DNA of 64,000 nt from an uncultured Bacilli bacterium (GCA_944371605.1 CALVXU010000015.1:9686-73685); one strand, 5' to 3'. Shown: positions 8,075 to 25,119, numbered from the stretch's first letter. Numbers and translations: made by a program. The notes: generated by a model from the letters alone, not told the origin.

Positions 8075-8683
8075 TTATTCAGGGATGACTTGAACAGCCG
8101 TCACACTGATATCAAAACTGAGATCTGCATTCATAGCTAGATTATTGCTAGAATCATTGATAAATTCAGCTTTGATAACAAATTCTTGCTCGCTATTAGG
8201 TGCGATTGGCGTCTCAAACGAAAAATCTTTTTCATCTAATGCGAACTTCTCCACTTCTTCTCCAACAGTCAGAGTGATTTCAATCTGCTCTTGTAAAGCT
8301 TGAGCACTAGCTTTGTCTTCACCAAGAACGATATCTAAAAAGCTGATAGAATAAGTGAAGGCGATATCTCCAGTATTTTTTAAAAGAAGAGTTGATTCTT
8401 GATACATCCCTGGTAAATAACCTGTGATGTCAAAAATACTGGATTCATCTTTGGTTAAGTCGACATTCACTTCATCACTATAGGGTACAAAAGCATTATT
8501 TTCGTACTTTAATCCACTGACCTTAGTTTCGTAAAGCTCAGCTTTTAATTCCCCGGCAACCAAATGATTGTTTGTTTCTGTTTGAGAATTAAAAAGAGCA
8601 TAAGTAGCTAAAACTAGTCCACCTGCACTCGCTCCTAAAACCAAAACAGAAGCTACAATGCCTAAGATGAGTCTCTTTTTCAT
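8075..8683 (-). CDS. TasA/camelysin-like secreted protein (short form)
   Basis: MKKRLILGIVASVLVLGASAGGLVLATYALFNSQTETNNHLVAGELKAELYE matches the SipW-type signal/TasA N-terminal pattern. The remainder looks beta-rich. Confidence 0.7.
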   Translation of the reverse strand: MKKRLILGIVASVLVLGASAGGLVLATYALFNSQTETNNHLVAGELKAELYETKVSGLKYENNAFVPYSDEVNVDLTKDESSIFDITGYLPGMYQESTLLLKNTGDIAFTYSISFLDIVLGEDKASAQALQEQIEITLTVGEEVEKFALDEKDFSFETPIAPNSEQEFVIKAEFINDSSNNLAMNADLSFDISVTAVQVIPE

Positions 8684-8829
8684 TTTTGCTCCTTTCTATG
8701 ATGTAATAACTTCTTCGTAAGAATCTTATACAAATCACTCTCTTTGAAAAGAATGATCAGTATCCAAATAAATGTCGCTAATAAGATGACTAAAAGGATT
8801 GGTAAATAAATAATTGCAATCTGTATCAT
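8680..8829 (-). CDS. 49-aa single-pass membrane protein (unannotated small ORF)
   Basis: ATG at 8829 lies 5 nt after GGAG, inside the TTGGAGTGA end of the upstream gene. It translates to MIQIAIIYLPILLVILLATFIWILIILFKESDLYKILTKKLLHHRKEQK. Its TGA overlaps the ATG of the next gene as ATGA (8680-8683), and it fills the otherwise empty 148-nt gap. Confidence 0.5.
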   Translation of the reverse strand: MIQIAIIYLPILLVILLATFIWILIILFKESDLYKILTKKLLHHRKEQK

Positions 8830-8831
8830 GC

Positions 8832-9299
8832 TCACTCCAATTTAAAAACCAAAGCAAAGTCTAACGCTTTCCCCATCGCACTATTATCAGTTTCTAGTGG
8901 TAAAGAATAGGAAATAGAAACTTGCAATTCATCTTCGATAACTGTTTTCAATTTATTATCAGTCAAATCTTTTAGTAAACCATTGTATTCAATCTCATCA
9001 TCAAGTAAGATTTCAGCGTTCAAAAAAGGAAGCAACCCTTGTTCATCTTTATAAATGAACTCGATTATTAAATCACTAGTGATAGAAGTATTTTTAACAT
9101 CATAATCAAATGTTTCTACTTTGCCAGGCACCATTCCTGTCAAAGAAACATCTAAGGATGTCGTATCATCATTTGGATTCAGTTCAATACCAAAGAAATC
9201 CTTTTGGGCCACTCGATAAAGGGCATATCCAGATACCCCACCGATAACTAATATAACAATTGCTGCAGAAACTAATAATGCCTTAATTAATTTTGACAT
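8832..9299 (-). CDS. Small secreted/membrane-anchored protein, first gene of the SipW/TasA-like operon
   Basis: N-terminal TM/signal SKLIKALLVSAAIVILVIGGVSGYALY followed by a beta-rich domain. Its size and position resemble the other TasA-like genes but the motif match is weaker. I moved the start to the ATG at 9299, 6 nt after GAGGTG. Confidence 0.55.
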   Translation of the reverse strand: MSKLIKALLVSAAIVILVIGGVSGYALYRVAQKDFFGIELNPNDDTTSLDVSLTGMVPGKVETFDYDVKNTSITSDLIIEFIYKDEQGLLPFLNAEILLDDEIEYNGLLKDLTDNKLKTVIEDELQVSISYSLPLETDNSAMGKALDFALVFKLE

Positions 9300-9559
9300 T
9301 AATATCACCTCATCTTGTTATGTCAATATTTTATTGACCCTCCCCATTTAATCAATAGTGATGTCGTCAATTAGAACTTTAAATGCATAAATTGTCATTT
9401 CGAGCAATACGTCTATTGATTATTAAATAAATTTACGTTATAATTTAAATAATATAATTTAAGAATAAATATTATATTTTTTATCAAAAAAACGATATAT
9501 AAAATAGCTGCATCATGTTTGAACCAAGCAGCTGGTTATCTATCATCACAAATCTTTGC

Positions 9560-9565
9560 TATAAT
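9560..9565 (+). promoter_or_regulatory. Extended -10 element (TGcTATAAT) upstream of the small FakA-like gene
   Basis: tttGCTATAAT gives a perfect TATAAT at 9560-9565 preceded by TGc, 21 nt upstream of the ATG at 9587. There is no convincing -35. Confidence 0.4.
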
Positions 9566-9586
9566 ATGAAAAAAACGGAGGCACAT

Positions 9587-9838
9587 ATGCTCGAATATCG
9601 TTATGACACTCAATTGCTTATCAATGGTGAAAATTTAGATGAAGAAGCAATCAATGAATACTTCACCAAAAATTTCAAAGGCGATTGTCTTTTAGCAGTT
9701 GGCGATGATAGATTGATCAAAATCCACTACCACACCAATGAACCATGGAAAGTATTAGAATACTGCCGAAGCCTAGGCGAAATATATGATATTGTCGTCG
9801 AAGATATGGACAGACAATCTCGAGGTTTAAAAGGATAA
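9587..9838 (+). CDS. Stand-alone homolog of the central domain of FakA/YloV (DAK2-fusion protein)
   Basis: The start ATG follows ACGGAGG. The product MLEYRYDTQLLINGE...GDCLLAVGDDRLIKIHYHTNEPWKVLEYCRSLGEIYDIVVEDMDRQ is collinear with the segment FGYCTQFLMQL...GNSIVCVSDGDLVKVHIHTLRPGNILTYAQQFGEFKMIKIDNMSEQ of the fakA gene at 62688-64000 in this same window. Confidence 0.7.
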   Translation: MLEYRYDTQLLINGENLDEEAINEYFTKNFKGDCLLAVGDDRLIKIHYHTNEPWKVLEYCRSLGEIYDIVVEDMDRQSRGLKG

Positions 9839-9843
9839 AAAAT

Positions 9844-9879
9844 AGCTAGTGACTTTAGGTCAATCCATCACTAGCTTTT
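9844..9879 (+). terminator. Rho-independent terminator
   Basis: AGCTAGTGA (9844-9852) pairs with TCACTAGCT (9868-9876) and is followed by TTT. Confidence 0.55.
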
Positions 9880-9965
9880 GGAGGTGGCAATAACTGCCTG
9901 TATAGACAAAGAGCTGTTAACTACGGTTAATATTATAAATGTTTTTAAAATCAATGCAAGTTAAA

Positions 9966-11489
9966 TCATTTCGTTTTTGATATGACTTCATTGATTTTTT
10001 TAATCAGTAATTGAACCGCAGGTGTCGAAGATAAGTTTTTATTTGGCAAAGCCCCTAAATAATAACCCAGGTGTCCATCTAATGGTAAAAGTTTATCATC
10101 TGGATATATGATGTAAAGCGAATCTACCGCATTTCTGATCAATTTGTCATTTTTAGTTTTAAAAGCGAATTGCACATAATCATCGATCATATCATCTAGA
10201 TAGCTTATTTTCTTATCATCGATCACCATCGGTAAAACATTCTTGCTGCTTCGATATTTCATCTCTAGAACAAAGGCGTTGATAAACTGATCATTTTCGA
10301 ATAATTCGATTGTGAAGTCTGGCCTATTCTTTCGACTATTGATGGTCACTAACTCATCATTGACATCTTCGCGATAATTTTTGATTATTGCATCATAATT
10401 AACAACAGCTTTGTAAGTTCCCATCAAATAGATAAGCGGCTTCATGCCAGGATGAAAATCCTCTAATCTTATATCAGCACTTCCTTCCATTTGAAAACCA
10501 CATTCTGACAAGACAGCATTGATGATGACAAGACCATATAGTTCATATAGAACAGAGGTTCTTTTTCTTTGATACACTTTAACTGCTTCTTTATTTAATA
10601 AAGCCTTATTAAAATTGTTGACTAAATGATAATCAGTATTATAAGCATATGAATAATTCATTCTCGTTTCTTTAACATTATTAAAAAATGGTTTGTTTCT
10701 AAATTCACATAATCTATCCAATAATTTTCTCATTATAATAAGACACTCAGTATATTCATTTTGCATATATGAATCATTGATATATTCGATAGCATTCTTC
10801 ATAGAAATGATGATATTCCTCAAAGAGTGTTTTAAACGTCTGTTATAACCAGTATCATAAGATAAAACCTTTTTAACTGAATAATATCCTTTGCGACTAG
10901 AGAATCGATTGTTTAAACGCTCAGTCTTATAATCTTGAACAGCTTTGCTTTGTGAGAGATAGTATTTCTTGCAGATGATTTTATCTGGATTTCGTTCTAT
11001 ACGAGATATCGCCTTTTGAATCTTCAAATCATATTCATTCAATATTCTTTTCAATCTGAGCAAATAATCATTTTCAACCCGTGAAAAATTGATTGTCAAA
11101 TGCTTTTGAAATCGTTCTAAAGCGCTGACTAATTCCACTAGATTTTGTTCGTCTTTTATGTTGGTAACAACTGAAAAACTAGAGACTTTGTCTAACGTAG
11201 AAGTCTTTAATTCATATGTTCCCGGCAGATAATAAAGATTGGGATATTGTGATGAAGAAATCAAAAATTTATCACCTGGTTTTAATAACAGAAAACTATC
11301 TTTAGTTTGCTTAACTTCTTTATCAAAGAAAGTTTCTGCTTCTAATAGCAAGTCTTCATCCCCAGTATTAGAGACATAGACTTCTTCGGTATCAGCAAAG
11401 AGGTCATCTTGTTGAAATGGTAAAAGAAATGTTCGCTCAGATAGTACTCTATTCGGAAAAGAAAATGTGATTTTAGCGCAAGAAGCCAT
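9966..11489 (-). CDS. McrC-like PD-(D/E)xK nuclease subunit (DUF2357/DUF524-like)
   Basis: The C-terminal region has RPDFTIELFEN...AFVLEMKYRS, a D...E.K nuclease motif. There is a 17-nt overlap with the upstream McrB-like ATPase gene. The pairing and gene order match McrBC-type systems. Confidence 0.6.
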   Translation of the reverse strand: MASCAKITFSFPNRVLSERTFLLPFQQDDLFADTEEVYVSNTGDEDLLLEAETFFDKEVKQTKDSFLLLKPGDKFLISSSQYPNLYYLPGTYELKTSTLDKVSSFSVVTNIKDEQNLVELVSALERFQKHLTINFSRVENDYLLRLKRILNEYDLKIQKAISRIERNPDKIICKKYYLSQSKAVQDYKTERLNNRFSSRKGYYSVKKVLSYDTGYNRRLKHSLRNIIISMKNAIEYINDSYMQNEYTECLIIMRKLLDRLCEFRNKPFFNNVKETRMNYSYAYNTDYHLVNNFNKALLNKEAVKVYQRKRTSVLYELYGLVIINAVLSECGFQMEGSADIRLEDFHPGMKPLIYLMGTYKAVVNYDAIIKNYREDVNDELVTINSRKNRPDFTIELFENDQFINAFVLEMKYRSSKNVLPMVIDDKKISYLDDMIDDYVQFAFKTKNDKLIRNAVDSLYIIYPDDKLLPLDGHLGYYLGALPNKNLSSTPAVQLLIKKINEVISKTK

Positions 11490-13380
11490 AGGTTAAGAAT
11501 TCCTTCTTCTTATTGGCAATCTCTTTCATAGAGAGTTCAAAATCTGAAATATCACTATATTTTTTTAAAAAAGTAACCAATTCTCCTTCTTTAGCACTAT
11601 AACCTAATAATTCCTTTAGGCTATCACTTTCGCCTCTGATTCTTTCTAAAATAGTTTGCTTGAACGCATAGTCAAAAGCCTGTGAACCAGTGAAATTATC
11701 CGAGTGTTTTGCGCAATTCAAATAGATAGCAATATTTTTTATCGTTCGATAGGATATACCAAAATGATAATCTTTTTGTCTTAATAATTCGTCTAATTCA
11801 TCGAAAAAATCTAATTGCTTATCATCGAAGAAGTTCCAATAATTAAACGTGGTGAAGTCCCGGTCTCCAAGGAGAGTTTTTAGTTCTTGATTATTGCTAT
11901 AAGAGATTTTTTTGTTCTCTCCTTGTTCCAAGATATCTTTTTTTGCTTGTGCGAATTTAGCTTTTGATAGATGGATGATAAAAGAACGATCGATCAGTCT
12001 ATCAGAAAGACTAGTTGTTGTCTCATCGACATTAATAGTTCCGATAAAGATGATATTAGTTCCTAATTTGATGACTGGCGGATAACATTTGCCATTTAAA
12101 CATTTGTTTGGTTCAGTCGTGTCTTCTAGAGAATAAAGTCTCAAATACCTTTCATTTGGATCTCTTTCAAGCACTGATAAAAATGGTGCAAACCAATGTT
12201 CGACTTGAGCTAAGTTCATCTCTTCAAATAACACCAAATGCATCAATTCAGGATGATTGTTAGCATGGATAAGAAAGTCAGTAAAACCAGTTTGTGATGG
12301 ATGGTAAATATGGTCATTTGGACTATAATAGCCCAAAAGATCGGTAGGATCAGTATAGCTAGGATAAATCGGTAAAAACAAAAAAGTCTTATCTCGCTCT
12401 GTCAAATTAAAAAAGTGAGCATATTCTAATGGCAATCTTGTTTTCCCGGTTCCAGACATACCAGCTAAAATCGTCAAAGAACCGCTCTTGATGCAAGAAT
12501 GAAAATTATAAATATCACTCTTTGAGTAATGAAGATTAACTTGTTCTAAATGAGTGCTTAAATCATCTAAAATTTGTTCCTCTTTATCCATCATAGCTTT
12601 CTTAGCTAAGAGTTTTTCAGGATTTTCAGCTATAAAAGAACTACTATTCTGTGAGAAGCATTTGATGACCATCTCTTTTGAAAAAAATCTTCGAGTTTTT
12701 TTGCCAACAGAATAGAGGCCACCATTTTTCTCTAATTGATATGTGATAAATTTAGTCTCGATAATTTTATCGTCAGCTAATTTGACTGTTCGGTAATCGA
12801 CTTTTTGAAGCTCAACTTTAAGAAGCTTATTTCCACCATCCAAATAAACCGGCAAGTCAAAGTAATCATTATTCCAATCATCGATGATGATCGGCTGATG
12901 TTGTTTGAGTAGTTTTTCTTTATTAGGACTGATTTGTGGCAGTAAAAAGAAAGAAGTAAAACGCGAATTATCTAATTTTTCTAAAGTGATACGTGTATTT
13001 ATTTTCTTTGAAATAAGTATTTTATCATTAGAATTCATCAATTCATATTTAGGGATAAAAGCTACAAAAGCATCTTTAAGACTATTATAAATATAGTTAG
13101 CTCTTTCCTCCAAATCAGAATATCTGCTTTTGTTAGTTCCCAAACATTTCAAAATAAAATCATCATAGCAATAATAAAAGGATTCACTATCATTAGAAGT
13201 ACGATAACACAAATCATCGTTTTCTTTGATTAATAACGGTTCATCAGATAACGCAGAAAAATAAACGCTGACAGCTGGCACTTTGATATCATTTTTAATT
13301 TCTACTCTCACTAGCTTAGCCAAAATATGATATTGCTGCTTGTTCAATATCTCTATTTGTTCTTGTAAAGTTTCATTCAT
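11473..13380 (-). CDS. McrB-like AAA+ (AAA_5) NTPase with a long N-terminal domain of unknown specificity
   Basis: Walker A LAGMSGTGKTRL. Walker B and the McrB-type signature LVLFEEMNLAQVEHWFAPFLSVLE (compare DEiNRa...f..ll.llE). Downstream FIGTINVDETT and SDRLIDRSF (sensor/arginine region). Confidence 0.7.
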   Translation of the reverse strand: MNETLQEQIEILNKQQYHILAKLVRVEIKNDIKVPAVSVYFSALSDEPLLIKENDDLCYRTSNDSESFYYCYDDFILKCLGTNKSRYSDLEERANYIYNSLKDAFVAFIPKYELMNSNDKILISKKINTRITLEKLDNSRFTSFFLLPQISPNKEKLLKQHQPIIIDDWNNDYFDLPVYLDGGNKLLKVELQKVDYRTVKLADDKIIETKFITYQLEKNGGLYSVGKKTRRFFSKEMVIKCFSQNSSSFIAENPEKLLAKKAMMDKEEQILDDLSTHLEQVNLHYSKSDIYNFHSCIKSGSLTILAGMSGTGKTRLPLEYAHFFNLTERDKTFLFLPIYPSYTDPTDLLGYYSPNDHIYHPSQTGFTDFLIHANNHPELMHLVLFEEMNLAQVEHWFAPFLSVLERDPNERYLRLYSLEDTTEPNKCLNGKCYPPVIKLGTNIIFIGTINVDETTTSLSDRLIDRSFIIHLSKAKFAQAKKDILEQGENKKISYSNNQELKTLLGDRDFTTFNYWNFFDDKQLDFFDELDELLRQKDYHFGISYRTIKNIAIYLNCAKHSDNFTGSQAFDYAFKQTILERIRGESDSLKELLGYSAKEGELVTFLKKYSDISDFELSMKEIANKKKEFLTYGFLR

Positions 13381-14176
13381 AGTCTTCTTCCTCTAAACTA
13401 GCATATAGATAAATGGAGACTGCAATTTTTTTCATCTTTTCTACATTTTTATCAGCGACTGCTTCTTCGATTTTTTGTATCAAATCCTCTCTTTGAGGTT
13501 GCTTGATCTTAGAAGGGATATCATTCAAAAGTGTTCGTATTTTCTCTTTTAAATTTTCATATTTTGTCTTATATGAATTCAATTGATTAGTCAAATCATT
13601 AATCTTCTGATTGAGAGACGAATTGCTCTTTCTGAGCTCTTCTAGCTTTTTGCTGTCAGCCTCAGTGCTCGTCTCTTTGTTGCTTTCTTCACTGACTTCT
13701 TCTAATCCATCTTCTCGATGGATATAATCATTTTTAACTTTTAAGAAGTCTTCTTCAGAAACCGATAGACTGAAAAGTTTTTTAAGCAAAAATTTTATAT
13801 ACGGATGTGGTGTTTCTAAACGGTCGATATATTCGTACTTACCTTGATTACTAAGCTTAGCAAATTCTTGACCAGGCCTTTCTTTGCGCATTTTAGAGTT
13901 GATTTTATTAGCGAAGATTTCTAATACTTTATCTCTATTTTTAGCATTGGGATCAAATAATATATTTTCACAAAATGAAGTGGCTTTTTTTGAATTATCT
14001 TTTTTATTTTTGTCGATCGTTTCTTGATCTAATTTACAATATGGTATCTTTTTAAATTCTGGCAGTTTATAAAGTTTTCTTATAATACTTTTTAATTTTT
14101 CAATCCCTATATAGTCTGTTAAAGCTGACAAATCGTCTTTATCAAAATTTAATAAATTATCAATCTCTTGCGACAT
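13373..14176 (-). CDS. Hypothetical protein with C-terminal coiled coil, McrBC-like operon gene 2
   Basis: ORF with an 8-nt overlap onto the McrB-like gene. The C-terminal half is heptad-rich (KLEELRKSNSSLNQKINDLTNQLNSYKTKYENLKEKIRTL). I recognised no family. Confidence 0.5.
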   Translation of the reverse strand: MSQEIDNLLNFDKDDLSALTDYIGIEKLKSIIRKLYKLPEFKKIPYCKLDQETIDKNKKDNSKKATSFCENILFDPNAKNRDKVLEIFANKINSKMRKERPGQEFAKLSNQGKYEYIDRLETPHPYIKFLLKKLFSLSVSEEDFLKVKNDYIHREDGLEEVSEESNKETSTEADSKKLEELRKSNSSLNQKINDLTNQLNSYKTKYENLKEKIRTLLNDIPSKIKQPQREDLIQKIEEAVADKNVEKMKKIAVSIYLYASLEEEDYE

Positions 14177-14474
14177 CTTTAAATTCCTCCATTAAATCAT
14201 CTGAAAATACCTTAGTAGATATATATGGAACAGCATTGAATTCCTTGTCGATAAAAAAACATTCATCATTCATCTTTACAAAAAAAGATATGAATTTTCC
14301 TTTTGTCCATTGTGGTAATTTAAACTCAAAATCCTGTTTGACTTCATCATCAAATAAAAGCGATTCATCACATTTTAATATCACATGCAAACTAGGCAAC
14401 TCATTCAAACATGAATAATCTATTTGCGCTAATCCTTTAGTAATAGTAAAAATTCTTTTATTAAAATCATTCAC
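14160..14474 (-). CDS. Hypothetical small protein, McrBC-like operon gene 1
   Basis: GTG start 9 nt after GGAGGG, and a 17-nt overlap with the next gene. I recognised no family. Confidence 0.5.
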   Translation of the reverse strand: MNDFNKRIFTITKGLAQIDYSCLNELPSLHVILKCDESLLFDDEVKQDFEFKLPQWTKGKFISFFVKMNDECFFIDKEFNAVPYISTKVFSDDLMEEFKDVARD

Positions 14475-14497
14475 AATAAGAATCCCTCCATATAAAA

Positions 14498-14506
14498 ATT
14501 ATATCA
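14498..14506 (-). promoter_or_regulatory. Extended -10 promoter element (TGaTATAAT) for the McrBC-like operon
   Basis: The minus strand reads aagTGaTATAATttttatatGGAGGGattcttattGTG. The TATAAT is perfect with an upstream TG, about 24 nt before the start codon. The -35 is weak. Confidence 0.5.
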
Positions 14507-14638: not shown

Positions 14639-14875
14639 ATGGCAGAAGTGATTGAGGAAGAAAAGAAAAGAGCAGCTAAAAAGATGTACCATATTGCCAA
14701 AAGAGAAGATGGCAAATGGCAAGTAAAGTTTGCTGGTGGAAGCAAAGCTATCAAATTATTTAATACTAAAGCTGAAGCTGTCGCTTATACTGAAAATATG
14801 GCTACTAATCAAGACGCTGGAGTTTTAATTCATCCTTCTAAAGGGAAAAATAAAGGAAGATTTAGTAACAAGTAG
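14639..14875 (+). CDS. DUF2188-like small protein
   Basis: YHIAKREDGKWQVKFAGGSKAIKLFNTKAEAVAYTENMATNQDAGVLIHPSKG follows the DUF2188 pattern (hV.p...gW.vk..g..ra...f.tk.eAi..A...A......l.iH...G). Confidence 0.65.
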   Translation: MAEVIEEEKKRAAKKMYHIAKREDGKWQVKFAGGSKAIKLFNTKAEAVAYTENMATNQDAGVLIHPSKGKNKGRFSNK

Positions 14876-15704: not shown

Positions 15705-17528
15705 TCAATTTTTAATTGAGATATAACTGATATTACCATTTGTATGTGTGACTTTATAATAGAACTGAGCTAAATTAGTCCTAGTGAGAAATTCGATATT
15801 TTTAACTGAAGTATCTAAATTTAAGCCACGATTTCTGCTAAAAGAATAGCCGGTATAAAGAATTGTCCCTGTTGTATCCAATAGCAATGAGCACTGGTTG
15901 AAAGCATCCATAAACTTTCTGCTAAAGCGAGCATTTTCAAATTTTTCATTTGTGCTACTCACTTTTGATGTGACTTTGATTTCATCACTACTGGTCTCGA
16001 CTGCAGCTAGTAAATTATCTTTCGAATTATAAGTATCAAAGCGAGTGACACCAACATATCTTGTAGATAAGTCACCTATGATGTCATCAGAAGATTCATT
16101 GACATAATGATAATAACCAATTTTATCCTTATAAACAAAATTTTGTTCTGAATAAGTTTCGATTGAAGCAAAGCCATTACTCAATGGTTTACTTTCTAAA
16201 ATATAATCAGGTCTAGAAAAGAACGATTGTTTTTTACCATTACAATAAAATAAAAGTCCATCACCAGTCACATCATTGATTCCGATCATATTGCCTTCTC
16301 CAGCACAAGAGACCGAATAATAAGTATTCAATGAATTTGGAGATATCTCTTCAGTTTCTCCATCAGTCTCTTCTCCATCTTCAGAAGAAGAATTTAAAAA
16401 TGATTTGATATCTCCTGAACCTGTTATGGTAAAGGTATAAGAATTTTCTTCATCAACAGTTCCATCAGATTTTAATTTGAATCCAATGAATGAACTGCTA
16501 GCTAAAGATTTATGAGCCACGTGCCACCAAGTCGGTTTATGATATGAATAAGAAACATTCGCATCTAAGCTATTAAAAGTGACAGGAACATATTGTCGCA
16601 AATTAGTTTTTCCATCATCATTGAGGACAAACATCTCGCTTCTCACTATTCCTAATTTTGTATCATTACCTGTCGCTAAAACACATAGCGCTTTTTTGGT
16701 CGGAAGAACAAGGTATTGAACATTCTCACAATCTAAAAGTTTTTGTGAGAAACAATCGGTCGAAAGAATTTCATATTCCTTTTTATTGTCGTCGTCATCA
16801 TAAAAGATAGCTACGCCATTTTGATAAACAACACGATTCTGTCTATCAATATTATCCGTGTATGTCATAGATATATAATCATTAGTATATATGAAATCCA
16901 CCAAAGAAGCATCTTCATATGAAGATTTAGTCAATTCGTAATAAATAGGAAAGCCAGAATTACTATTTATGTTTGATTTTGTTTTTAGATAATAATCATC
17001 TTCTGGACCCGGATCATCATGATTGATAATCTGGGCGTTGATGGTATAACTATTAGTTATAGATATGGAAACATCAGAGAGATTTTCAAATGTAACTCCT
17101 AAATCGACACCTGTTGTTGTATAAAGAGCATAGTTATCCCCTAAGTCAATAGCTGCAAATGGCATATCATCATATATGTGAATAGGTTCATCTGAATATG
17201 GAACAGTCGTGAGATAACTTCTGCTTGTAATAGTATCGCCTAACAAGTAAATATCAACCGTATCTCCATGAGCTATATAACAAAAGCGAGAATAATTTAC
17301 ACCATCGTATTTAGGAAATTGTAAATCTTCAAAATATGAGTTGCTGACAATTGTTGGGGCACCTAAATTTGCATTTCCATTAAAGTCGAAGAAAGAGCCA
17401 TAACTATAAGAACTCTCAACTATATCAGTGTAATCTCTATCATGATAAGAATAACCTGGCGAGTCAAACAAACAAGATGTCAATAATAGTACTGATAAAG
17501 CACAAGGAATAATTGCAATTTTTTTCAT
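15705..17528 (-). CDS. Lipoprotein, last gene of the ESCRT-III/Vps4-like operon
   Basis: MKKIAIIPCALSVLLLTSCLF has a signal peptide with lipobox LLTSC. The 607-aa product is Ser/Thr/Tyr/Asp-rich and looks beta-rich and extracytoplasmic. It begins 18 nt after the preceding gene. Confidence 0.7.
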   Translation of the reverse strand: MKKIAIIPCALSVLLLTSCLFDSPGYSYHDRDYTDIVESSYSYGSFFDFNGNANLGAPTIVSNSYFEDLQFPKYDGVNYSRFCYIAHGDTVDIYLLGDTITSRSYLTTVPYSDEPIHIYDDMPFAAIDLGDNYALYTTTGVDLGVTFENLSDVSISITNSYTINAQIINHDDPGPEDDYYLKTKSNINSNSGFPIYYELTKSSYEDASLVDFIYTNDYISMTYTDNIDRQNRVVYQNGVAIFYDDDDNKKEYEILSTDCFSQKLLDCENVQYLVLPTKKALCVLATGNDTKLGIVRSEMFVLNDDGKTNLRQYVPVTFNSLDANVSYSYHKPTWWHVAHKSLASSSFIGFKLKSDGTVDEENSYTFTITGSGDIKSFLNSSSEDGEETDGETEEISPNSLNTYYSVSCAGEGNMIGINDVTGDGLLFYCNGKKQSFFSRPDYILESKPLSNGFASIETYSEQNFVYKDKIGYYHYVNESSDDIIGDLSTRYVGVTRFDTYNSKDNLLAAVETSSDEIKVTSKVSSTNEKFENARFSRKFMDAFNQCSLLLDTTGTILYTGYSFSRNRGLNLDTSVKNIEFLTRTNLAQFYYKVTHTNGNISYISIKN

Positions 17529-17546
17529 CGTTCAATCCCTCCCCCT

Positions 17547-20500
17547 CTATAGTCCTGGATAATAGAAATTATATAGTAGTCCCATATAATCCTCTTTACT
17601 CATCATGAACTCGACTGCTAAAACTATTGGAACAATAATTCCTGCGATAGCAAATACTGAATTGACTGGATTTCTAAATTTGATGATGTGCGGATGATTG
17701 ACTAAATAGACTAATCCCATCAAAATAGTAGCTGCTAAAGGTAAATATTCAATCAATTTATAATCTGTCTGCACCATGAGATCTTCGAATAGATACACAA
17801 ATGGTATAGCTGCAAAAATTATTGTGAATATAATCGGAATAACTTTTGCCTTGATTCCGTTCCCTGAAAAAATCATCCAAGCGATACCTAGTGGTATAAC
17901 AATGAAAAGGTTGATATACGCATTAGCCATGCCGACGTTGACATGATTAAAATTGAGAAGAGTAAAAGCAAAGGAAGCGAGGATAGCAAAAATAGCATAG
18001 ACGATAGAAGAAGCTTTAAAGTAAGTGGCTGAGAGAGAGGACATGCTCTTTTTCTTATACCTGCCTATAACATTATTAGATTTTTGCTCAGTGGCTGTAC
18101 TTATTTTCGTTTTATACTTACTCAAGATATCAAAAAAGACATATTGTAGACTATCAAATTTCTTACCATTATATTTTCCAGAGCTGAGAGAAGCTAAGAA
18201 CTCAAATGACTCTTCTTTTGTGTTCTCGAAGAGAGTGAGATGAATTTTTTGAATCTCTTTCAAAGTTTTAATAATATTCTTTTTCTCATATTTAATACTC
18301 GCGATAGCAATATCTTGCCACACTTTATGAAAGTCTTTATTCAATGCTTGTGAAGAAGTTATTCTATTCGCTTTGATCAAGTCAGCATTCTTCTCATCTT
18401 CCTTTTGGCTCATAGAAATGATGTTATTATATTCATCTTCAGATTTACCAGTAGTATAATCAGCATTTTCTCCTAACAATAATAAGCCGAAATTGGTTTT
18501 GATGTGCAAAGCTGCTTTCAAATTGATCCAATAAGTCTCACTCGTATCTAATTGTAAAGCGATGAGTTTACCTATGAGTTCCTTAGCATTTTCAAACTTG
18601 CCAATCCATAGATTTCTTTCAGCAAAATCAGTGACAATAGTGTAATAATAATCATTAAATACATCATCGTCCATATATTCTTTAGCATTTGGTAAAATAG
18701 CTAAAACGTTGTTGAATAACAAATAAGCATTTTTACTTTTTTCTCTTAAATACTTAGTGCATAATTCAACGATAGTATTGACATAATTACCTTTAGAATT
18801 ATTGATTTTATAGCCACCTTTTAACATCATTTCAATGGTATTATTAACTTCTGATGGTTTATCAAGAATTTTAACTAAATCAGCATTATTAGAGATTTTA
18901 AACTTCACTAAAAGCTTGTTCCATAATGCAGTCGGATCAGCTTGGAATAACTCTAAAGCTTTATTTTGATATTTGATAGACGAATCAAATTTGCTAACTT
19001 TTCTGAATGCTGACGCGACCTGATCATAATAGCCGATGACTTTATTAGCACCACCGATAGTTAAAACATCATAGATAGCATCACTCATCTTATCCACATC
19101 TTCTACCAAATTCGAATATTTATTATTCTTACTATTAGAAGCGGCTATATGAGTCACAATAGCATTTTGTAGACTATAAGTGATATTTAGCTCATCTTTT
19201 TCATCAATATAACTCAATAAAAACTTATAAAGAGGTATCACATGGACAAATTGTTTAGAATCAGCAGAGTATTTAAGCTGTTCTTTTAAAATGTTGAGTT
19301 TTTCTTTGACATATTCCTCTGGTGCAAAAGAGAAGCATTTCCCTAAAACATCATTCAAGGTTTTCTCATTTAAACTAAAGGCAGTAGTAGACAACCCCAT
19401 CGTCGATGAGTTTTCATCTGCGACTCCATTATAAAGCAAATATAAGCACCAATATGCCTCATAATATTTGTTATTTTTTGCTGTTAAATCTCTTAAAGTT
19501 TTTTCAGCTGATTTACGATATTCAGCAGCTCTCTTCAATTTATTTTTGATTGTAAACGTGACCATCGATCGCATTTTTTCTTTAGCAGAGTCTAAAAGAA
19601 CTGCTTCATCAGCTGGGATGACAATCTTTTCTTTTGAGCCACCTAAAATAGTTTTTTCAATCTTTTTTTCGACGACTTGAATCGGTTTAATCTCGACTTT
19701 AATTTCTTTCTTTTTAACTTTAAACCCGACATTTCTTTGAATAGCCGACTTTAAGATTGCTTGCAAATTGTTATAAAATTGAGGATTGTATTGAAGAGCT
19801 TGCAATTTCTTTAGTTTTGCAGGGAATTGACTGATGTCAACCTTATTAGTGATGACTGGAACAAGAGCTAAGGCTGGATCTTCTTCTCTTCTTTTCAAAT
19901 ATCTCGACCACTCATTTTGAACCCATGGCTGAGTGATATAATCAACCTCATCAGTACAGATTAAAAGAAATACAGGAGCTGTCGATAAAGCATGATAAAT
20001 AATCGGTTCATATTCAGCACCGACTTTTTGCTTTAACGTCTCTTCCGAATAAAATACACGATATCCAGCCGCAGTCAAATTTTCATAAATATCTTTAGCT
20101 ACTTTGTCATCGGCAGTATAACCCTTGCCATCTAATGTGCGCACTTTTAATGATATAAAAATGTCATAAGGATCTTCTGAAGATAGCTTTTCATAAGCCA
20201 ATGAACGAATGTCTTCAAGTTCTTCAGCGCTCGCACGATAATTATCTGCTTGCTTACCTTTAGCATAGTTCAATGCTTGAATCAAGTTAGAATCTTCTAA
20301 ACAATTTCTGTCTGAGAGTCTATTTAAAGTTGGCTTATGGGTGGCATTACCATCTTCATCGACATATAAAATGCCATAATCACAAAGGAATTTTTGAAAA
20401 TATAATTCAGCTAAAATGTTTGTGTTATTCTTTTCATCATTTTTATATTTTACAATCAAATCATCAATATATTCTTCGCATTCTTCAAATTGCAATCTAT

Positions 20501-20663
20501 TTCTTTTTTCATACACACGTTGGATTTTTTCAGTCACATCGGCGTCAAAAGATATGACCGGAAATTCTCTATGACAATAGCTGCATTCAACAACACCATT
20601 GCTGACATCAGTGGACTGTATAGGCGCACCACAATAACTACAGGTCAAGTCTAACACTTCCAT
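17547..20663 (-). CDS. Zinc-ribbon / TIR-like domain / helical-repeat / 5-TM membrane protein
   Basis: N-terminal CSYCGAPIQ...CSYCHREF (CxxC...CxxC). The TIR-like block is YDIFISLKVRTLDGKGYTADDKVAKDIYENLTAAGYRVFYSEETL...VFLLICTDEVDYITQPWVQNEWSRYL (compare TIR_2: vFiSy...a..l...L...G..vf.d....G......i..al..a.v.l.l.s....S.Wv..E). About 550 aa of helical sequence follows. The C-terminal approximately 190 aa holds five hydrophobic helices. I set the start at the ATG at 20663, 8 nt after GGGGAGG; the track TTG is at 20669. Confidence 0.65.
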   Translation of the reverse strand: MEVLDLTCSYCGAPIQSTDVSNGVVECSYCHREFPVISFDADVTEKIQRVYEKRNRLQFEECEEYIDDLIVKYKNDEKNNTNILAELYFQKFLCDYGILYVDEDGNATHKPTLNRLSDRNCLEDSNLIQALNYAKGKQADNYRASAEELEDIRSLAYEKLSSEDPYDIFISLKVRTLDGKGYTADDKVAKDIYENLTAAGYRVFYSEETLKQKVGAEYEPIIYHALSTAPVFLLICTDEVDYITQPWVQNEWSRYLKRREEDPALALVPVITNKVDISQFPAKLKKLQALQYNPQFYNNLQAILKSAIQRNVGFKVKKKEIKVEIKPIQVVEKKIEKTILGGSKEKIVIPADEAVLLDSAKEKMRSMVTFTIKNKLKRAAEYRKSAEKTLRDLTAKNNKYYEAYWCLYLLYNGVADENSSTMGLSTTAFSLNEKTLNDVLGKCFSFAPEEYVKEKLNILKEQLKYSADSKQFVHVIPLYKFLLSYIDEKDELNITYSLQNAIVTHIAASNSKNNKYSNLVEDVDKMSDAIYDVLTIGGANKVIGYYDQVASAFRKVSKFDSSIKYQNKALELFQADPTALWNKLLVKFKISNNADLVKILDKPSEVNNTIEMMLKGGYKINNSKGNYVNTIVELCTKYLREKSKNAYLLFNNVLAILPNAKEYMDDDVFNDYYYTIVTDFAERNLWIGKFENAKELIGKLIALQLDTSETYWINLKAALHIKTNFGLLLLGENADYTTGKSEDEYNNIISMSQKEDEKNADLIKANRITSSQALNKDFHKVWQDIAIASIKYEKKNIIKTLKEIQKIHLTLFENTKEESFEFLASLSSGKYNGKKFDSLQYVFFDILSKYKTKISTATEQKSNNVIGRYKKKSMSSLSATYFKASSIVYAIFAILASFAFTLLNFNHVNVGMANAYINLFIVIPLGIAWMIFSGNGIKAKVIPIIFTIIFAAIPFVYLFEDLMVQTDYKLIEYLPLAATILMGLVYLVNHPHIIKFRNPVNSVFAIAGIIVPIVLAVEFMMSKEDYMGLLYNFYYPGL

Positions 20664-20665
20664 TT

Positions 20666-22105: not shown

Positions 22106-22106
22106 A

Positions 22107-23576: not shown

Positions 23577-24156
23577 TGAGTTTTTCCTGTAGTTTCTTAT
23601 CTAAATCAGCAAGAGATGCCTCGACATCATCCTTTTTGCCGTCTTGATTAATTTCTTCATTTATTAAAGACATGATTTCATCATTAGAAATATTACTGGC
23701 TTCAGAGACATTAGAGAATGAATCTTTAGAATCATCTAAAAACAGTTCCATTCTCTCTTGTTGTTTTTCAGTAGAAGCCATCGCTAAGCTGAATTGCTTA
23801 GAGACTTGTGCGAATTGCTTGTCATCTGTGAGTTTGACCATATCCTTAGAAAGAGAAGACATTCCATTCAAAAATTCAGACGTGGTTTGCAACATATCTT
23901 TCAAAGAGACCATGATTTCAAAATTGATTTTCATCTCACGAATCTTTTTCTCTTGTGCTAATGCACTTTTTAAAGCAGAAATCGCTAAAGATAGCTCATT
24001 ATCTAAGCCATGCAGCTTAGCTTCTTTAGCTTTTTCAATATAAATCTGTTTTTGCTCTTCTAACTTCTTCAATTGTTTCGTCATTTGAGCGATAGTTTTC
24101 TTCAAGGTTAACTTTTTTTCAAATTCTTTTTCTTCCTTACTTTTAAATATTGACAT
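23569..24156 (-). CDS. ESCRT-III (CHMP/Snf7)-like coiled-coil protein with C-terminal MIM-like helix
   Basis: 195 aa with a basic N-terminal half, an acidic C-terminal half and a long helical hairpin pattern. It is collinear with CHMP2-type proteins; for example, FAQVSKQFSLAMASTEKQQERMELFLDD aligns with LPQIQKIMMEFERQAEIMDMKEEMMNDAIDD. The C-terminus ASLADLDKKLQEKLNG resembles the MIM1 motif (CHMP2A ADLEERLKNLRR). Confidence 0.6.
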   Translation of the reverse strand: MSIFKSKEEKEFEKKLTLKKTIAQMTKQLKKLEEQKQIYIEKAKEAKLHGLDNELSLAISALKSALAQEKKIREMKINFEIMVSLKDMLQTTSEFLNGMSSLSKDMVKLTDDKQFAQVSKQFSLAMASTEKQQERMELFLDDSKDSFSNVSEASNISNDEIMSLINEEINQDGKKDDVEASLADLDKKLQEKLNG

Positions 24157-24727: not shown

Positions 24728-25095
24728 CAGAATTTTTCCTCTTTAGTATCAATAGTAGTGACCAAGTTCTTTCTTTTCGTGATTGCTAATTTTAAATCAT
24801 TGATGCAGGAGATCAGCTTTTCACTAGCAAAATCAGTTTTTTTCAAGCACTTATTAACTTCAATCATCAAATCACCAATAGTGTTTTGGATATTTCTATC
24901 TGCCTTTTCACTATCAGCACGTGGGATGAGATATTTGATTTCCTCTCTCAAAGTTTTTAATTCCTTAGAAAGGTTGTCGTCTTTTCCTTCGACTAAATCA
25001 ACTAAAATATTCATCGAAGAAAGCATCTCAGAGATGCGATTCTTTGACTTAACCTCATCTTTATATGCAGAATTTTTATTTTTAAAAAAGAACAT
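24727..25095 (-). CDS. Small helical protein of unknown family (operon gene 2)
   Basis: An ORF of about 122 aa, predicted helical by composition. I moved the start to the ATG at 25095, 8 nt after GGAGG; the track start at 25110 contains the SD itself. Confidence 0.5.
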   Translation of the reverse strand: MFFFKNKNSAYKDEVKSKNRISEMLSSMNILVDLVEGKDDNLSKELKTLREEIKYLIPRADSEKADRNIQNTIGDLMIEVNKCLKKTDFASEKLISCINDLKLAITKRKNLVTTIDTKEEKF

Positions 25096-25119
25096 TTCCT
25101 TTTCCTCCAATCAATTCAA

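What the first reader, a model, noticed from the sequence alone, without database searches (positions are those of the whole stretch)
9966..14474. Four-gene McrBC-like restriction operon with two extra upstream genes of unknown function
Seen in sequence:
- A McrB-type AAA_5 NTPase has GMSGTGKT at about nt 12439-12463 and LVLFEEMNLAQVEHWFAPFLSVLE.
- It overlaps by 17 nt a 507-aa protein with a PD-(D/E)xK motif (PDFTIELFEN...VLEMKYR, about nt 10255-10325).
- Two upstream ORFs of 104 aa and 267 aa (the latter with a C-terminal coiled coil) are chained to it by 17-nt and 8-nt overlaps.
- All four follow an extended -10 promoter (TGaTATAAT at 14498-14506).

Established knowledge: McrBC and the related DUF2357/DUF524 plus AAA_5 pairs are type IV (modification-dependent) restriction systems. 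The McrB N-terminal domain determines specificity.

Inference: the 300-residue N-terminal region here is not recognisable as a known reader domain. The two extra coupled genes may supply specificity or regulation, which would make this a four-component variant.
Basis: partly seen in the sequence, partly recalled or inferred. Interest (0 to 1): 0.6.

Follow-up and report, generated by a model that had tools for sequence, protein, structure and literature searches.

The report
Four-gene CoCoNuT-type McrBC-like operon
This is a real, intact four-gene operon from the "Type I-B CoCoNuT" branch of McrBC-like bacterial immune systems, which was described by computation in 2024 and is still untested; this copy has a shortened coiled-coil subunit and one extra small gene, so it is a new variant of a known kind.

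Summary
Four overlapping minus-strand genes (104, 267, 635 and 507 aa) follow an exact TGnTATAAT box and end at a hairpin plus T-run.

- **635-aa protein:** a McrB-type AAA+ NTPase. It carries the shortened "NxD" signature (GTINVDETT) that Bell et al. (eLife 2024) use to define the CoCoNuT/NxD branch.
- **507-aa protein:** a McrC-like partner with an intact E…PD…(E/D)xK nuclease site, conserved in 47 of 47 relatives.
- **267-aa protein:** occupies the place of CnuA, the separate coiled-coil subunit of Type I-B CoCoNuTs, but has no room for CnuA's REC-like C-terminal domain.
- **The NTPase's "unrecognisable" N-terminus:** folds confidently (pLDDT 90.7). Its only structural matches, all weak, are OB-fold proteins that bind single-stranded nucleic acid.
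- **104-aa protein:** the part I did not find described in that paper. It is a predicted Ig-like beta-sandwich with a C-terminal helix, and it occurs only as a stand-alone protein (28 credible clusters among 1.84 billion representatives).

All 12 loci with this four-gene layout form one clade (support 100/98). That clade is nested among three-gene CnuA-CnuB-CnuC systems of Bacillota.

Verdict: a new four-gene variant of a published, experimentally untested kind. Restriction of modified DNA is unproven, and one "extra" gene is already known. Interest is moderate.

The parts
14498..14506 (-). Extended -10 promoter box TGATATAAT. There is no good -35 hexamer.
   Evidence: Read directly. The consensus scan requires a -35 hexamer, so it did not list this site.
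14485..14489 (-). Shine-Dalgarno GGAGG, 10 nt upstream of the GTG start of the first gene
14160..14474 (-). Gene 1, called 'S' here (104 aa): a small stand-alone protein predicted to be a 7-strand Ig-like beta-sandwich (residues 9-80) plus a C-terminal helix (87-103). This is the novel accessory component.
   Evidence: - ORF listed.
- No match in Pfam, PADLOC or NCBIfam.
- AF2 model: pLDDT 84 overall and at least 93 in the core.
- Foldseek gives only generic Ig/FN3/C2 matches, E >= 0.03.
- A profile search of 1.84 billion representatives gives 29 hits, 28 of them stand-alone proteins of 91-139 aa.
- Found only in four-gene loci.
13373..14176 (-). Gene 2, called 'M' here (267 aa): a CnuA-like coiled-coil protein. 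It has an N-terminal helical region, a coiled coil at about residues 135-250 and a short helical C-terminus. It has no REC-like domain.
   Evidence: - Coiled-coil family matches at residues 135-250.
- The profile hits only coiled-coil chains in the PDB.
- A coherent family across 12 loci.
- It sits in the CnuA position, immediately upstream of the NTPase and overlapping it.
- Sequence similarity to canonical CnuA is weak and dominated by compositional bias.
11473..13380 (-). Gene 3 (635 aa): CnuB, a McrB-like AAA+ NTPase of the NxD branch
   Evidence: - Pfam AAA_5.
- PADLOC PDC-M26A, 1.6e-38, over the AAA+ core only.
- Only PDB sequence hits are E. coli McrB.
- 478 or more homologs; distant ones are named 'McrB family protein'.
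- Tree placement.
12595..13380 (-). CnuB N-terminal sensor region (residues 1-262): a beta-rich module containing OB-fold(s)
   Evidence: - AF2 pLDDT 90.7, pTM 0.85.
- The Foldseek PDB list (50 shown) is dominated by OB-fold binders of single-stranded nucleic acid such as RPA, SSB, Teb1, Stn1 and Cdc13. E-values run from 3.8e-3 to 0.2, with probability up to 0.99. No YTH or EVE match is listed.
- The sequence profile matches the N-termini of six three-gene relatives, E 3e-14 to 7e-8.
12439..12462 (-). Walker A motif GMSGTGKT (residues 307-314)
12214..12234 (-). Walker B region LFEEMNL (residues 383-389; E387, M388 and N389 are invariant)
12025..12033 (-). N450-V-D452 within GTINVDETT: the 'NxD' sensor-1 signature, followed by Glu
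   Evidence: - N450 and D452 are invariant in alignment A1.
- GT[IV]NxD[ED][ST]T is present in essentially all 89 relatives examined.
- The motif is defined in PMC11090510.
9966..11489 (-). Gene 4 (507 aa): CnuC, a McrC-like partner with a DUF2357-type region and a PD-(D/E)xK nuclease
   Evidence: - No direct Pfam match.
- Matches a profile of 35 partners from three-gene systems at E = 1.5e-38 over residues 41-466.
- Four of 8 aligned partners hit DUF2357 (best 4.4e-12) and four hit PDDEXK_7 (best 5.5e-7).
10257..10322 (-). Nuclease active-site motif P390-D391 ... E409-x-K411. The upstream acidic residue E316 lies at nt 10542-10544.
   Evidence: E316, P390, D391, [E/D]409 and K411 are conserved in 47 of 47 partners: 12 from four-gene loci and 35 from three-gene loci.
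9836..9876 (-). Terminator-like hairpin AGCUAGUGAC...GUCACUAGCU followed by AUUUUUUAU. It is shared with the convergent FakA-like_M gene.
   Evidence: Sequence and fold. The strict terminator scan did not list it.

Best explanation
The locus is one operon encoding a four-subunit relative of McrBC. It belongs to the NxD-motif 'CoCoNuT' branch and is closest to Type I-B (CnuA-CnuB-CnuC).

**Shown**
- The four genes are co-directional and overlapping, and the layout is conserved as a unit in 12 loci with unrelated flanks.
- Gene 3 is a McrB-family AAA+ NTPase with intact Walker A and B motifs and the NxD-E signature.
- Gene 4 is a McrC-family partner with a fully conserved PD-(D/E)xK site.
- Gene 2 is a coiled-coil protein in the CnuA position.
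- Gene 1 is a small beta-sandwich protein confined to this clade.

**Inferred mechanism**
1. CnuB forms a McrB-like hexameric GTPase ring, and the DUF2357 region of CnuC plugs into the ring and stimulates it, as in E. coli McrBC.
2. The OB-fold N-terminal module of CnuB recognises a foreign or aberrant nucleic acid. The fold argues for a single-stranded ligand, RNA or ssDNA.
3. NTP hydrolysis couples that recognition to cleavage by the CnuC nuclease.
4. The coiled-coil protein bridges or spaces CnuBC assemblies. Canonical McrBC likewise needs two complexes to cut.
5. The 104-aa beta-sandwich protein is an accessory regulator or adaptor, perhaps docked through its C-terminal helix onto the coiled-coil subunit. 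In this clade it appeared together with loss of CnuA's REC-like domain.

The biological role is most likely defence against phages or plasmids.
For: **Operon anatomy:**

**Conserved cassette**
- The same four-gene order appears in L001, L002, L003, L005, L009, L010, L011, L013, L089, L090 and L091, with S-M overlaps of 1-29 nt.
- A 17-nt CnuB/CnuC overlap occurs in 42 of 56 family loci.

**McrB identity**
- PDB hits are McrB only.
- Source names are 'McrB family protein'.
- NxD followed by E or D is found throughout, matching the definition in PMC11090510.

**McrC identity and active site:**

**Type I-B layout** (separate coiled-coil CnuA, no coiled coil on CnuB, OB fold at the CnuB N-terminus, mostly Bacillota): described in the paper.

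**Tree**
- The four-gene group is monophyletic (100/98).
- It sits inside a 57-sequence Bacillota clade (100/99) made of three-gene CnuA-CnuB-CnuC loci plus a CnuA-less Bacillus/Gottfriedia group that resembles 'Pseudo-Type I-B'.

**Other support**
- Sensor fold. The sensor profile is shared with three-gene relatives.
- In the sister lineage (L015, L029) a helical/coiled-coil module is fused to the NTPase. This argues that the coiled-coil part and the NTPase act in one complex.
- S is a real folded protein.
- A Type II CoCoNuT gave phage defence experimentally (preprint 10.64898/2026.04.06.716636).
- The neighbouring operon encodes a TIR-domain protein. Earlier notes from this scan, not tested here, read that operon as immunity-type.
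Against: - No function of any Type I-B system has been tested, and the target (RNA, ssDNA or modified dsDNA) is unknown.
- Sequence similarity between the 267-aa protein and canonical CnuA is weak and dominated by coiled-coil bias. N- and C-terminal profile comparisons are null. Its equivalence to CnuA therefore rests on position, size and architecture.
- Its REC-like domain is missing, and its PYD/CARD-like N-terminus was not tested.
- The Foldseek matches of the sensor are weak (best E = 3.8e-3, low TM-scores). They show an OB-type fold, not specifically a cold-shock domain, and no YTH-like domain was detected.
- The roles proposed for S and for the coiled coil are inference only.
- No RNA-seq data could be found to confirm co-transcription.
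- I could not check whether the authors already binned this four-gene branch under Type I-B, because the supplementary sheet is truncated in the held copy.
Confidence: 0.78

Rival explanations
1. It is a conventional modification-dependent Type IV DNA restriction enzyme. The N-terminal domain of the NTPase reads a modified base in double-stranded phage DNA. The complex translocates and cuts DNA like E. coli McrBC. The two upstream proteins only tune specificity.
For: - McrB and McrC homology, with an intact PD-(D/E)xK DNA-nuclease-type site.
- Bell et al. note that many CoCoNuTs may also target DNA through McrC (abstract).
- OB folds can bind DNA.
Against: - The sensor matches no known modified-DNA reader (DUF3578/McrB-N, SRA, EVE, YTH) by sequence or by fold.
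- Its fold matches are binders of single-stranded nucleic acid.
- The NxD branch is the one whose describers predict RNA involvement.
- No methyltransferase or other DNA-modification gene lies beside the cassette in the window.
Confidence: 0.2
2. The 104-aa gene is not a subunit of the system. It is an independent small gene, such as a regulator, an immunity or antitoxin-like factor, or a hitch-hiking ORF, that merely sits at the head of the operon.
For: - Its sequence evolves very fast. Only subgroups are recognisably similar by phmmer, and hhalign between subgroups gives probability below 1%.
- It has no detectable similarity to any part of CnuA, CnuB or CnuC.
- Three-gene relatives work without it.
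Against: - It is present in all 12 four-gene loci and always at the same place. In all eight loci with gene calls its stop overlaps the start of the coiled-coil gene, and in the other four the ORF scan gives 4-17 nt overlaps.
- Its length (102-134 aa) and strand/helix pattern are conserved.
- It was found nowhere else among 89 loci.
- In 1.84 billion representatives it occurs only as a rare stand-alone protein.
- The clade that has it is monophyletic.
Confidence: 0.15
3. The cassette is not an antiviral system. [quoted passage not shown]
For: - The cassette is 98.7% identical in a second strain from another study, while the left flank is only 82.6% identical.
- It sits at the same site (DUF2188 ... 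FakA-like_M) in a relative with 60% identity in the NTPase. This suggests vertical inheritance rather than rapid turnover.
Against: - The same cassette sits in quite different genomic contexts in other loci, which is the behaviour of mobile defence cassettes.
- Its sensor and accessory proteins evolve fast.
- It neighbours an operon that encodes a TIR-domain protein.
- A Type II CoCoNuT defends against phages.
Confidence: 0.1

Closest known systems
Type I-B CoCoNuT (CnuA-CnuB-CnuC); Bell, Sahakyan, Makarova, Wolf & Koonin, eLife 2024 (PMC11090510)
   Same: - A separate coiled-coil protein is encoded immediately upstream of the NTPase.
- The McrB-like NTPase has the NxD(E/D) signature, no fused coiled coil and an OB-fold-containing N-terminus.
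- The McrC-like partner has a DUF2357 region and an active PD-(D/E)xK site.
- Reading frames overlap, and the hosts are Bacillota-type.
- In the tree the window's NTPase is nested among three-gene loci of this layout.
   Different: - The coiled-coil protein is about 100 residues shorter and lacks the REC-like C-terminal domain.
- An additional 104-aa beta-sandwich gene heads the operon. It is not mentioned in the paper's text that I read.
- No YTH-like domain was detected in the sensor.
- The PYD/CARD-like N-terminus of CnuA and the Ig-like N-terminus of CnuC were not tested here.
E. coli McrBC (canonical Type IV restriction; PDB 6HZ4, 6UT6, 7VSR)
   Same: - An AAA+ NTPase with Walker A and B motifs and an Asn/Asp sensor-1 signature.
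- A partner protein with a PD-(D/E)xK nuclease, encoded downstream with overlapping frames.
   Different: - NxD instead of NxxD.
- An N-terminal OB-type module instead of the McrB-N (DUF3578) reader of methylcytosine DNA.
- Two additional subunits.
- Sequence similarity is limited to about 100 residues of the AAA+ core (E = 0.01).
PADLOC candidate system PDC-M26 (two genes, A and B)
   Same: The NTPase core matches model PDC-M26A (1.6e-38).
   Different: - Only positions 285-445 of the 724-position model are matched.
- The partner does not match PDC-M26B.
- More distant two-gene relatives such as L067 fit the model better (2.9e-60).
- PDC-M26 has no coiled-coil gene and no small gene.
Three-gene McrBC relatives LlaI and BsuMI (R1 DNA-binding module, R2 AAA+ motor, R3 nuclease; preprint 10.64898/2026.08.31.748284)
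   Same: McrBC-derived systems in Bacillota in which functions are split over more than two genes.
   Different: - There the extra gene is a separate, site-specific DNA-binding module.
- Here the sensor stays fused to the NTPase, and the extra genes encode a coiled-coil protein and a beta-sandwich protein.
- This comparison rests on that paper's abstract only. It was not tested by sequence.

Membership tests
McrBC family (broad sense) | McrB-type AAA+ NTPase with Walker A, Walker B and the Nx(x)D sensor-1 signature | tested here: met
   - GMSGTGKT, FEEMN and GTINVDE are present; N450 and D452 are invariant.
- The only PDB sequence hits are E. coli McrB.
- Pfam AAA_5 is at threshold.
McrBC family (broad sense) | McrC-type partner (DUF2357 plus PD-(D/E)xK nuclease) encoded next to the NTPase | tested here: met
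   - The protein itself has no Pfam hit.
- It matches a profile of 35 partners at E = 1.5e-38.
- Aligned partners hit DUF2357 (4.4e-12) and PDDEXK_7 (5.5e-7).
- The catalytic residues are conserved in 47 of 47.
McrBC family (canonical, E. coli type) | N-terminal reader domain for modified dsDNA (McrB-N/DUF3578 or another known reader) | tested here: not met
   No reader family is found by sequence. The predicted fold matches OB-fold binders of single-stranded nucleic acid only.
McrBC family (canonical, E. coli type) | GTP-dependent cleavage of modified DNA | not testable with these tools
   This needs biochemistry or phage assays.
CoCoNuT / NxD branch (Bell et al. 2024) | NxD in place of NxxD in the NTPase signature, usually followed by E or D | tested here: met
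   The window has N-V-D-E. The pattern GT[IV]NxD[ED] is found in essentially all 89 relatives.
Type I-B CoCoNuT | Separate coiled-coil protein (CnuA) encoded with CnuB and CnuC, and no coiled coil fused to CnuB | tested here: met
   - The 267-aa protein gives coiled-coil matches at residues 135-250.
- It overlaps the NTPase gene by 8 nt.
- The CnuB N-terminus is beta-rich, not coiled coil.
Type I-B CoCoNuT | CnuA carries a C-terminal REC-like domain | tested here: not met
   - Only about 50 helical residues follow the coiled coil.
- Canonical CnuA proteins have a C-terminal alpha/beta-patterned domain of about 110 aa.
- Profile comparison of the two C-termini is null.
Type I-B CoCoNuT | CnuA carries an N-terminal PYD/CARD-like helical domain | not tested
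Type I-B CoCoNuT | CnuB has an N-terminal CSD-like OB fold | tested here: met
   - The model is confident (pLDDT 90.7).
- The listed Foldseek hits are dominated by OB-fold proteins, with probability up to 0.99 but weak E-values from 3.8e-3.
- An OB-type fold is supported; a cold-shock-domain subtype specifically is not shown.
Type I-B CoCoNuT | YTH-like (EVE superfamily) domain between the OB fold and the NTPase. The paper says 'often', so this is not obligatory. | tested here: inconclusive
   No YTH or EVE structure appears among the 50 listed Foldseek matches. The second beta-rich half (about residues 104-234) remains unassigned.
Type I-B CoCoNuT | CnuC has an N-terminal Ig-like beta-sandwich | not tested
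Residues 1-110 look beta-rich by eye, which is inference only.
Type I-B CoCoNuT | Phylogenetic placement of the NTPase with Type I-B / Pseudo-Type I-B sequences | tested here: inconclusive
   - The window's NTPase is nested in a 57-row Bacillota clade of CnuA-CnuB-CnuC-type loci and a CnuA-less Bacillus group.
- The authors' reference sequences (GED20858.1 and others) could not be retrieved for direct comparison.
PADLOC PDC-M26 | Both components A and B match | tested here: not met
   A matches only over the AAA+ core. B is not matched by the window's partner or by its relatives. One search shows that PDC-M26 fits a more distant two-gene group.

The most novel reading that the evidence does not exclude
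The gut-Bacillota four-gene branch is a distinct CoCoNuT subtype. In it, the phospho-receiver (REC) input of CnuA has been replaced by a dedicated small Ig-like subunit (S). S would bind the coiled-coil protein through its C-terminal helix, and act as the trigger sensor or the brake of the NxD GTPase-nuclease complex. That would make it an obligatory four-subunit McrBC-derived machine whose sensor reads single-stranded nucleic acid rather than modified duplex DNA.
Probability: 0.35. Interest if true: 0.6.

Novelty: new variant of a known kind. Interest (0 to 1): 0.45.

Why it matters
CoCoNuTs are a large, computationally defined branch of McrBC-like systems with almost no experimental data. 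The only test I found is one preprint on a Type II system.

This locus is compact (4.5 kb) and complete. All catalytic motifs are intact, and a confident model exists for its sensor domain. That makes it a convenient candidate for the first functional test of the Type I-B group, and for asking three questions:
- What does an NxD McrB do?
- Does the OB-type sensor read RNA or DNA?
- What is the separate coiled-coil subunit for?

The extra beta-sandwich gene appears in the same clade that lacks the REC-like domain. This gives a natural experiment on how these machines are regulated.

If the system proves to be ordinary DNA restriction, the finding still adds a catalogued four-gene variant that PADLOC 2.0 models do not fully match: only the NTPase core scored, and none of the other three proteins did.

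Tried and rejected
- **Homolog searches for the small proteins.** Word-indexed searches for the 104-aa and 267-aa proteins returned only near-identical copies.
- **S as a detached CnuA REC domain or a copy of the CnuC N-terminal domain.** HMM and hhalign comparisons were null (probability 1% or less). This is rejected at sequence level and not excluded at fold level.
- **S in three-gene loci.** Small ORFs upstream of CnuA in L014, L026 and L045 do not match the S profile.
- **REC detection by Pfam.** None of the 36 canonical CnuA proteins hits Response_reg. Pfam silence on REC is therefore uninformative.
- **PDB sequence searches.** They gave nothing useful for CnuC, its profile or the S profile, and only coiled-coil chains for the M profile.
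- **Filing under PADLOC PDC-M26.** Rejected.
- **Paper's Type I-B sequence table.** It is truncated in the held copy.
- **RNA-seq support for co-transcription.** No run could be listed.
- **Presence/absence polymorphism of the cassette.** No joint skipping the whole cassette was seen in four metagenome runs. One low-support joint (9486 to 12668, 20-letter side) in X6 was disregarded as unreliable.
- **Foldseek of S against viral structures.** Only generic Ig-like hits.

Full report
**Observation**

One search lists four minus-strand ORFs at 14474-14160 (104 aa, GTG start), 14176-13373 (267 aa), 13380-11473 (635 aa) and 11489-9966 (507 aa). They overlap by 17, 8 and 17 nt. The quoted motifs are all present:
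- GMSGTGKT at nt 12439-12462.
- LVLFEEMNLAQVEHWF... in the 635-aa protein.
- RPDFTIELF...VLEMKYR in the 507-aa protein.

TGATATAAT lies at 14506-14498, and GGAGG sits 10 nt before the GTG. A 10-bp hairpin followed by a T-run sits after the last stop codon, between the operon and a convergent gene. Generic promoter-like matches are at chance level in this AT-rich DNA, so the promoter call rests on the exact extended -10 box and its position.

**The two core proteins**

The 635-aa protein reaches Pfam AAA_5 only at threshold. Other evidence is clearer:
- Its only sequence matches among solved structures are the AAA+ domain of E. coli McrB (E = 0.01).
- PADLOC model PDC-M26A matches its core at 1.6e-38.
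- It has at least 478 homologs, and NCBI or UniRef name the distant ones 'McrB family protein'.
- An alignment of 28 homologs shows invariant G307, G310-K313, E387-M388-N389, N450 and D452.

The sensor-1 segment reads GTINVDETT. This is N-x-D followed by Glu, where E. coli McrB has N-x-x-D. The pattern GT[IV]NxD[ED][ST]T is present in essentially all 89 relatives I extracted.

The 507-aa protein has no direct family match. It does align with the genes that follow the NTPase in related loci, and four of eight of those hit DUF2357 (best 4.4e-12) and PDDEXK_7 (best 5.5e-7). A profile built from 35 such partners matches the window's protein at E = 1.5e-38 over residues 41-466. E316, P390, D391, [E/D]409 and K411 are conserved in 47 of 47 partners.

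The ATPase groups with McrB, and the nuclease motif is conserved.

**What is known**

Bell, Sahakyan, Makarova, Wolf and Koonin (eLife 2024, PMC11090510) surveyed about 34,000 McrBC systems. They defined a major branch by the shortening of NxxD to NxD, 'usually followed by a glutamate or a second aspartate'. Within it they defined the coiled-coil nuclease tandems (CoCoNuTs). Their Type I-B has three components:
- A separate coiled-coil protein, CnuA, built as PYD/CARD-like, coiled coil, REC.
- CnuB, which has no fused coiled coil. It has an N-terminal cold-shock-like OB fold and often a YTH-like domain.
- CnuC, built as Ig-like, DUF2357, PD-(D/E)xK.

Type I-B is found 'mainly in Bacillota'. 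A 'Pseudo-Type I-B' form in Bacillus has lost CnuA. The authors predict RNA targeting for CoCoNuTs, possibly with DNA cleavage through McrC as well. All of this is computational.

The only experiment I found is a 2026 preprint. [quoted passage not shown]

**Comparative genomics**

I collected 91 loci that encode relatives of the NTPase and called the neighbouring ORFs. Four layouts recur:
- **Four genes.** Twelve independent loci, the window included, have S (102-134 aa), M (263-316 aa), NTPase (635-662 aa; one copy, L013, shorter at 559 aa) and partner (507-590 aa). The flanking genes are unrelated: ABC transporters and CysS, trigger factor and sugar genes, SmpB, EF-Ts and others. L001 is the exception and is syntenic with the window (DUF2188 ... 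FakA-like_M).
- **Three genes.** Thirty-six loci from named Bacillota have a 292-469-aa coiled-coil protein, the NTPase and the partner. The hosts include Brevibacillus, Paenibacillus, Peribacillus, Sporosarcina, Desulfosporosinus and Lachnospiraceae. This is the Type I-B layout.
- **No upstream gene.** A Bacillus/Gottfriedia/Rossellomorea group lacks the upstream gene, as in Pseudo-Type I-B.
- **Fused.** Three loci (L015, L029, L020) have NTPases of about 870-886 aa with a helical/coiled-coil module fused to the N-terminus.

The NTPase/partner overlap is 17 nt in 42 of 56 family loci. In all eight four-gene loci with gene calls, the stop of S overlaps the start of M by 1-29 nt. In the other four, the ORF scan gives overlaps of 4-17 nt.

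A maximum-likelihood tree of the AAA+ and C-terminal region gives three results:
- The four-gene group is monophyletic (100/98).
- It is sister to the fused L015/L029 pair.
- It is nested in a 57-sequence clade (100/99) that is otherwise made of three-gene and CnuA-less Bacillota loci.

**The 267-aa protein (M)**

Residues 135-250 match many coiled-coil families. A 12-sequence profile hits only coiled-coil chains in the PDB, such as myosin rod, ZapB, Lpp and bZIPs. The family shares four features:
- A conserved N-terminal helical region.
- A second helical region.
- A coiled coil of variable length.
- A helical C-terminus of about 50 residues with a nearly invariant Tyr.

Profile matches to canonical CnuA proteins exist (E down to 4e-9) but carry large compositional bias and fall in the coiled coil. 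Comparisons restricted to the N- or C-terminal parts are null. Canonical CnuA proteins end in an alpha/beta-patterned domain of about 110 residues, presumably the REC-like domain. Pfam does not detect that domain in any of the 36. M has no room for it.

I therefore call M CnuA-like by position and architecture, REC-less, and unproven in sequence homology. The fused relatives give Rosetta-stone-type support that the coiled-coil part and the NTPase belong to one complex.

**The N-terminal 262 residues of the NTPase**

With a 33-sequence alignment, AlphaFold2 gives pLDDT 90.7 and pTM 0.85, with a beta-rich architecture.

Foldseek against the PDB returns no hit below E = 1e-3. The 50 listed matches are dominated by OB-fold proteins that bind single-stranded nucleic acid: RPA70, RPA32, bacterial SSBs, Teb1, Stn1, Cdc13 and the RecJ OB domain. 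E-values run from 3.8e-3 to 0.2, with probability up to 0.99. No YTH or EVE structure is listed.

The sequence profile of this region also matches the N-termini of six three-gene relatives (E 3e-14 to 7e-8). The sensor is therefore shared with canonical systems. This agrees with the OB fold reported for CnuB. Whether a second, YTH-like module is present stays open.

**The 104-aa protein (S)**

S has no family match. Its sequence diverges fast:
- Only the sets window/L001 and L003/L009/L010 are mutually recognisable by phmmer.
- Profile-profile comparison between subgroups gives probability below 1%.
- A 12-sequence alignment nevertheless shows a common strand pattern and a C-terminal helix.

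AlphaFold2 gives pLDDT 84, and at least 93 over residues 9-80. The model is a seven-strand beta-sandwich plus a lower-confidence helix at 87-103. Foldseek finds only generic Ig-like, FN3 and C2 sandwiches, with E >= 0.05 in the PDB and >= 0.03 in BFVD.

A profile search of 1.84 billion representative proteins finds 29 hits. Twenty-eight are stand-alone proteins of 91-139 aa, and one 697-aa hit (E = 3.8e-4) matches on a 43-residue stretch only. Among all ORFs of 89 loci, S occurs only in the four-gene loci. It shows no similarity to the REC-like end of CnuA or to the N-terminus of CnuC.

S is thus a real, rare, clade-restricted accessory protein. It appears on the same branch on which the coiled-coil protein is short and REC-less.

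**Mechanism**

These points are shown:
- One compact operon.
- Intact NTPase and nuclease sites.
- Conserved translational coupling.
- Conserved co-occurrence of the four genes.

The mechanism below is inferred by analogy with the E. coli McrBC structures as summarised:
1. CnuB forms a hexamer that is activated by insertion of CnuC.
2. The OB-type module binds a single-stranded nucleic-acid cue.
3. NTP hydrolysis licenses cleavage by CnuC.
4. The coiled-coil subunit bridges or spaces complexes.
5. S regulates or adapts, possibly replacing REC-mediated control.

The target (RNA, ssDNA or modified DNA) is not decided by anything here.

**Context**

The window comes from an uncultured gut Firmicute. 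Chicken-gut and other metagenome runs hold it. The neighbours are:
- Upstream: a divergent DUF2188 gene, then an operon with a TIR-domain membrane protein (TIR_2, 1.1e-10). Earlier notes from this scan describe that operon as an ESCRT-III/Vps4-like plus TIR cassette.
- Downstream: a convergent FakA-like_M fragment and a camelysin/TasA-like operon.

In another study's metagenome, a 24.7-kb contig carries 9550-16000 at 98.7% identity. There, 8500-9314 is only 82.6% identical, and 9314-9550 is replaced by other sequence.

**Earlier notes of this scan**

Earlier notes describe Type I-B CoCoNuT variants in other genomes. One of them is a four-gene form 'with a shortened coiled-coil protein and one extra small gene' (e1-4813038). 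They agree with my reading. I reached each point with my own calls, and I do not count those notes as independent evidence.

**Limits**

- Only two structure predictions were allowed, so M and the CnuC N-terminus were not modelled.
- The authors' reference sequences and their full Type I-B table were not available.
- No RNA-seq run was available.

**Verdict**

The locus is a new four-gene variant of a published but experimentally untested kind (Type I-B-like CoCoNuT). Interest is moderate, at 0.45.

Noticed in passing
window 15705-26256 (TIR protein at 17547-20669): About 1.2 kb beyond the cassette's promoter lies an operon with a 1040-aa membrane protein carrying a TIR domain (Pfam TIR_2, 1.1e-10). 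Earlier notes from this scan describe the operon as an ESCRT-III/Vps4-like plus TIR cassette. If that reading holds, the McrBC-like operon sits in a defence-island-like stretch.
   Followed up: partly
window 9515-9838 (+) and L001 10578-10829: A stand-alone ORF of 107 aa (83 aa in L001) consists only of the FakA-like middle domain (PF21645, 3.6e-19). It is convergent with the cassette and conserved at the same place in the syntenic relative L001. It could be a gene fragment or a small domain protein.
   Followed up: no
window 14639-14875 (+) and L001 5453-5722: A DUF2188 small protein (78 aa, 1.3e-14) is transcribed divergently from the cassette promoter region. It is also conserved next to the cassette in L001.
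   Followed up: no
window 8500-9550: In metagenome run X1, a 24.7-kb contig matches 9550-16000 at 98.7% identity but 8500-9314 at only 82.6%. It replaces 9314-9550 with 237 other letters. This marks a sharp divergence or recombination boundary at the end of the TasA/camelysin-like operon.
   Followed up: partly
L015 139-2799, L029 3441-6089, L020 20-2629: Relatives of the NTPase, 869-886 aa long, carry a helical plus coiled-coil module of about 250 aa fused in front of the sensor and NTPase. L015 and L029 are the sister group of the four-gene clade. This is a natural fusion of the CnuA-like part to CnuB.
   Followed up: partly
NTPase/partner junction, window 11473-11489 and 41 other loci: The overlap between the NTPase and nuclease genes is exactly 17 nt in 42 of 56 family loci spanning many Bacillota families. 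This is an unusually rigid translational-coupling geometry.
   Followed up: partly
L009, L010: Four-gene cassettes lie on contigs binned as Bacteroides uniformis (L009) and Alistipes onderdonkii (L010). L009's NTPase is nearly identical to L003's (tree branch lengths about 0.03), while L010 is a more distant member of the same sub-clade (0.4). Every other member of the clade looks Bacillota-like. This is either mis-binning or horizontal transfer.
   Followed up: no
L007 9739-10143: In the Bhargavaea three-gene system, an extra, very acidic 134-aa ORF overlaps the end of the nuclease gene by 4 nt. It does not match the S profile. It may be a different accessory gene.
   Followed up: partly
L091 7745-9736: A 663-aa MethyltransfD12-family protein (a DNA adenine methyltransferase family) is encoded convergently, just downstream of one four-gene cassette.
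   Followed up: no
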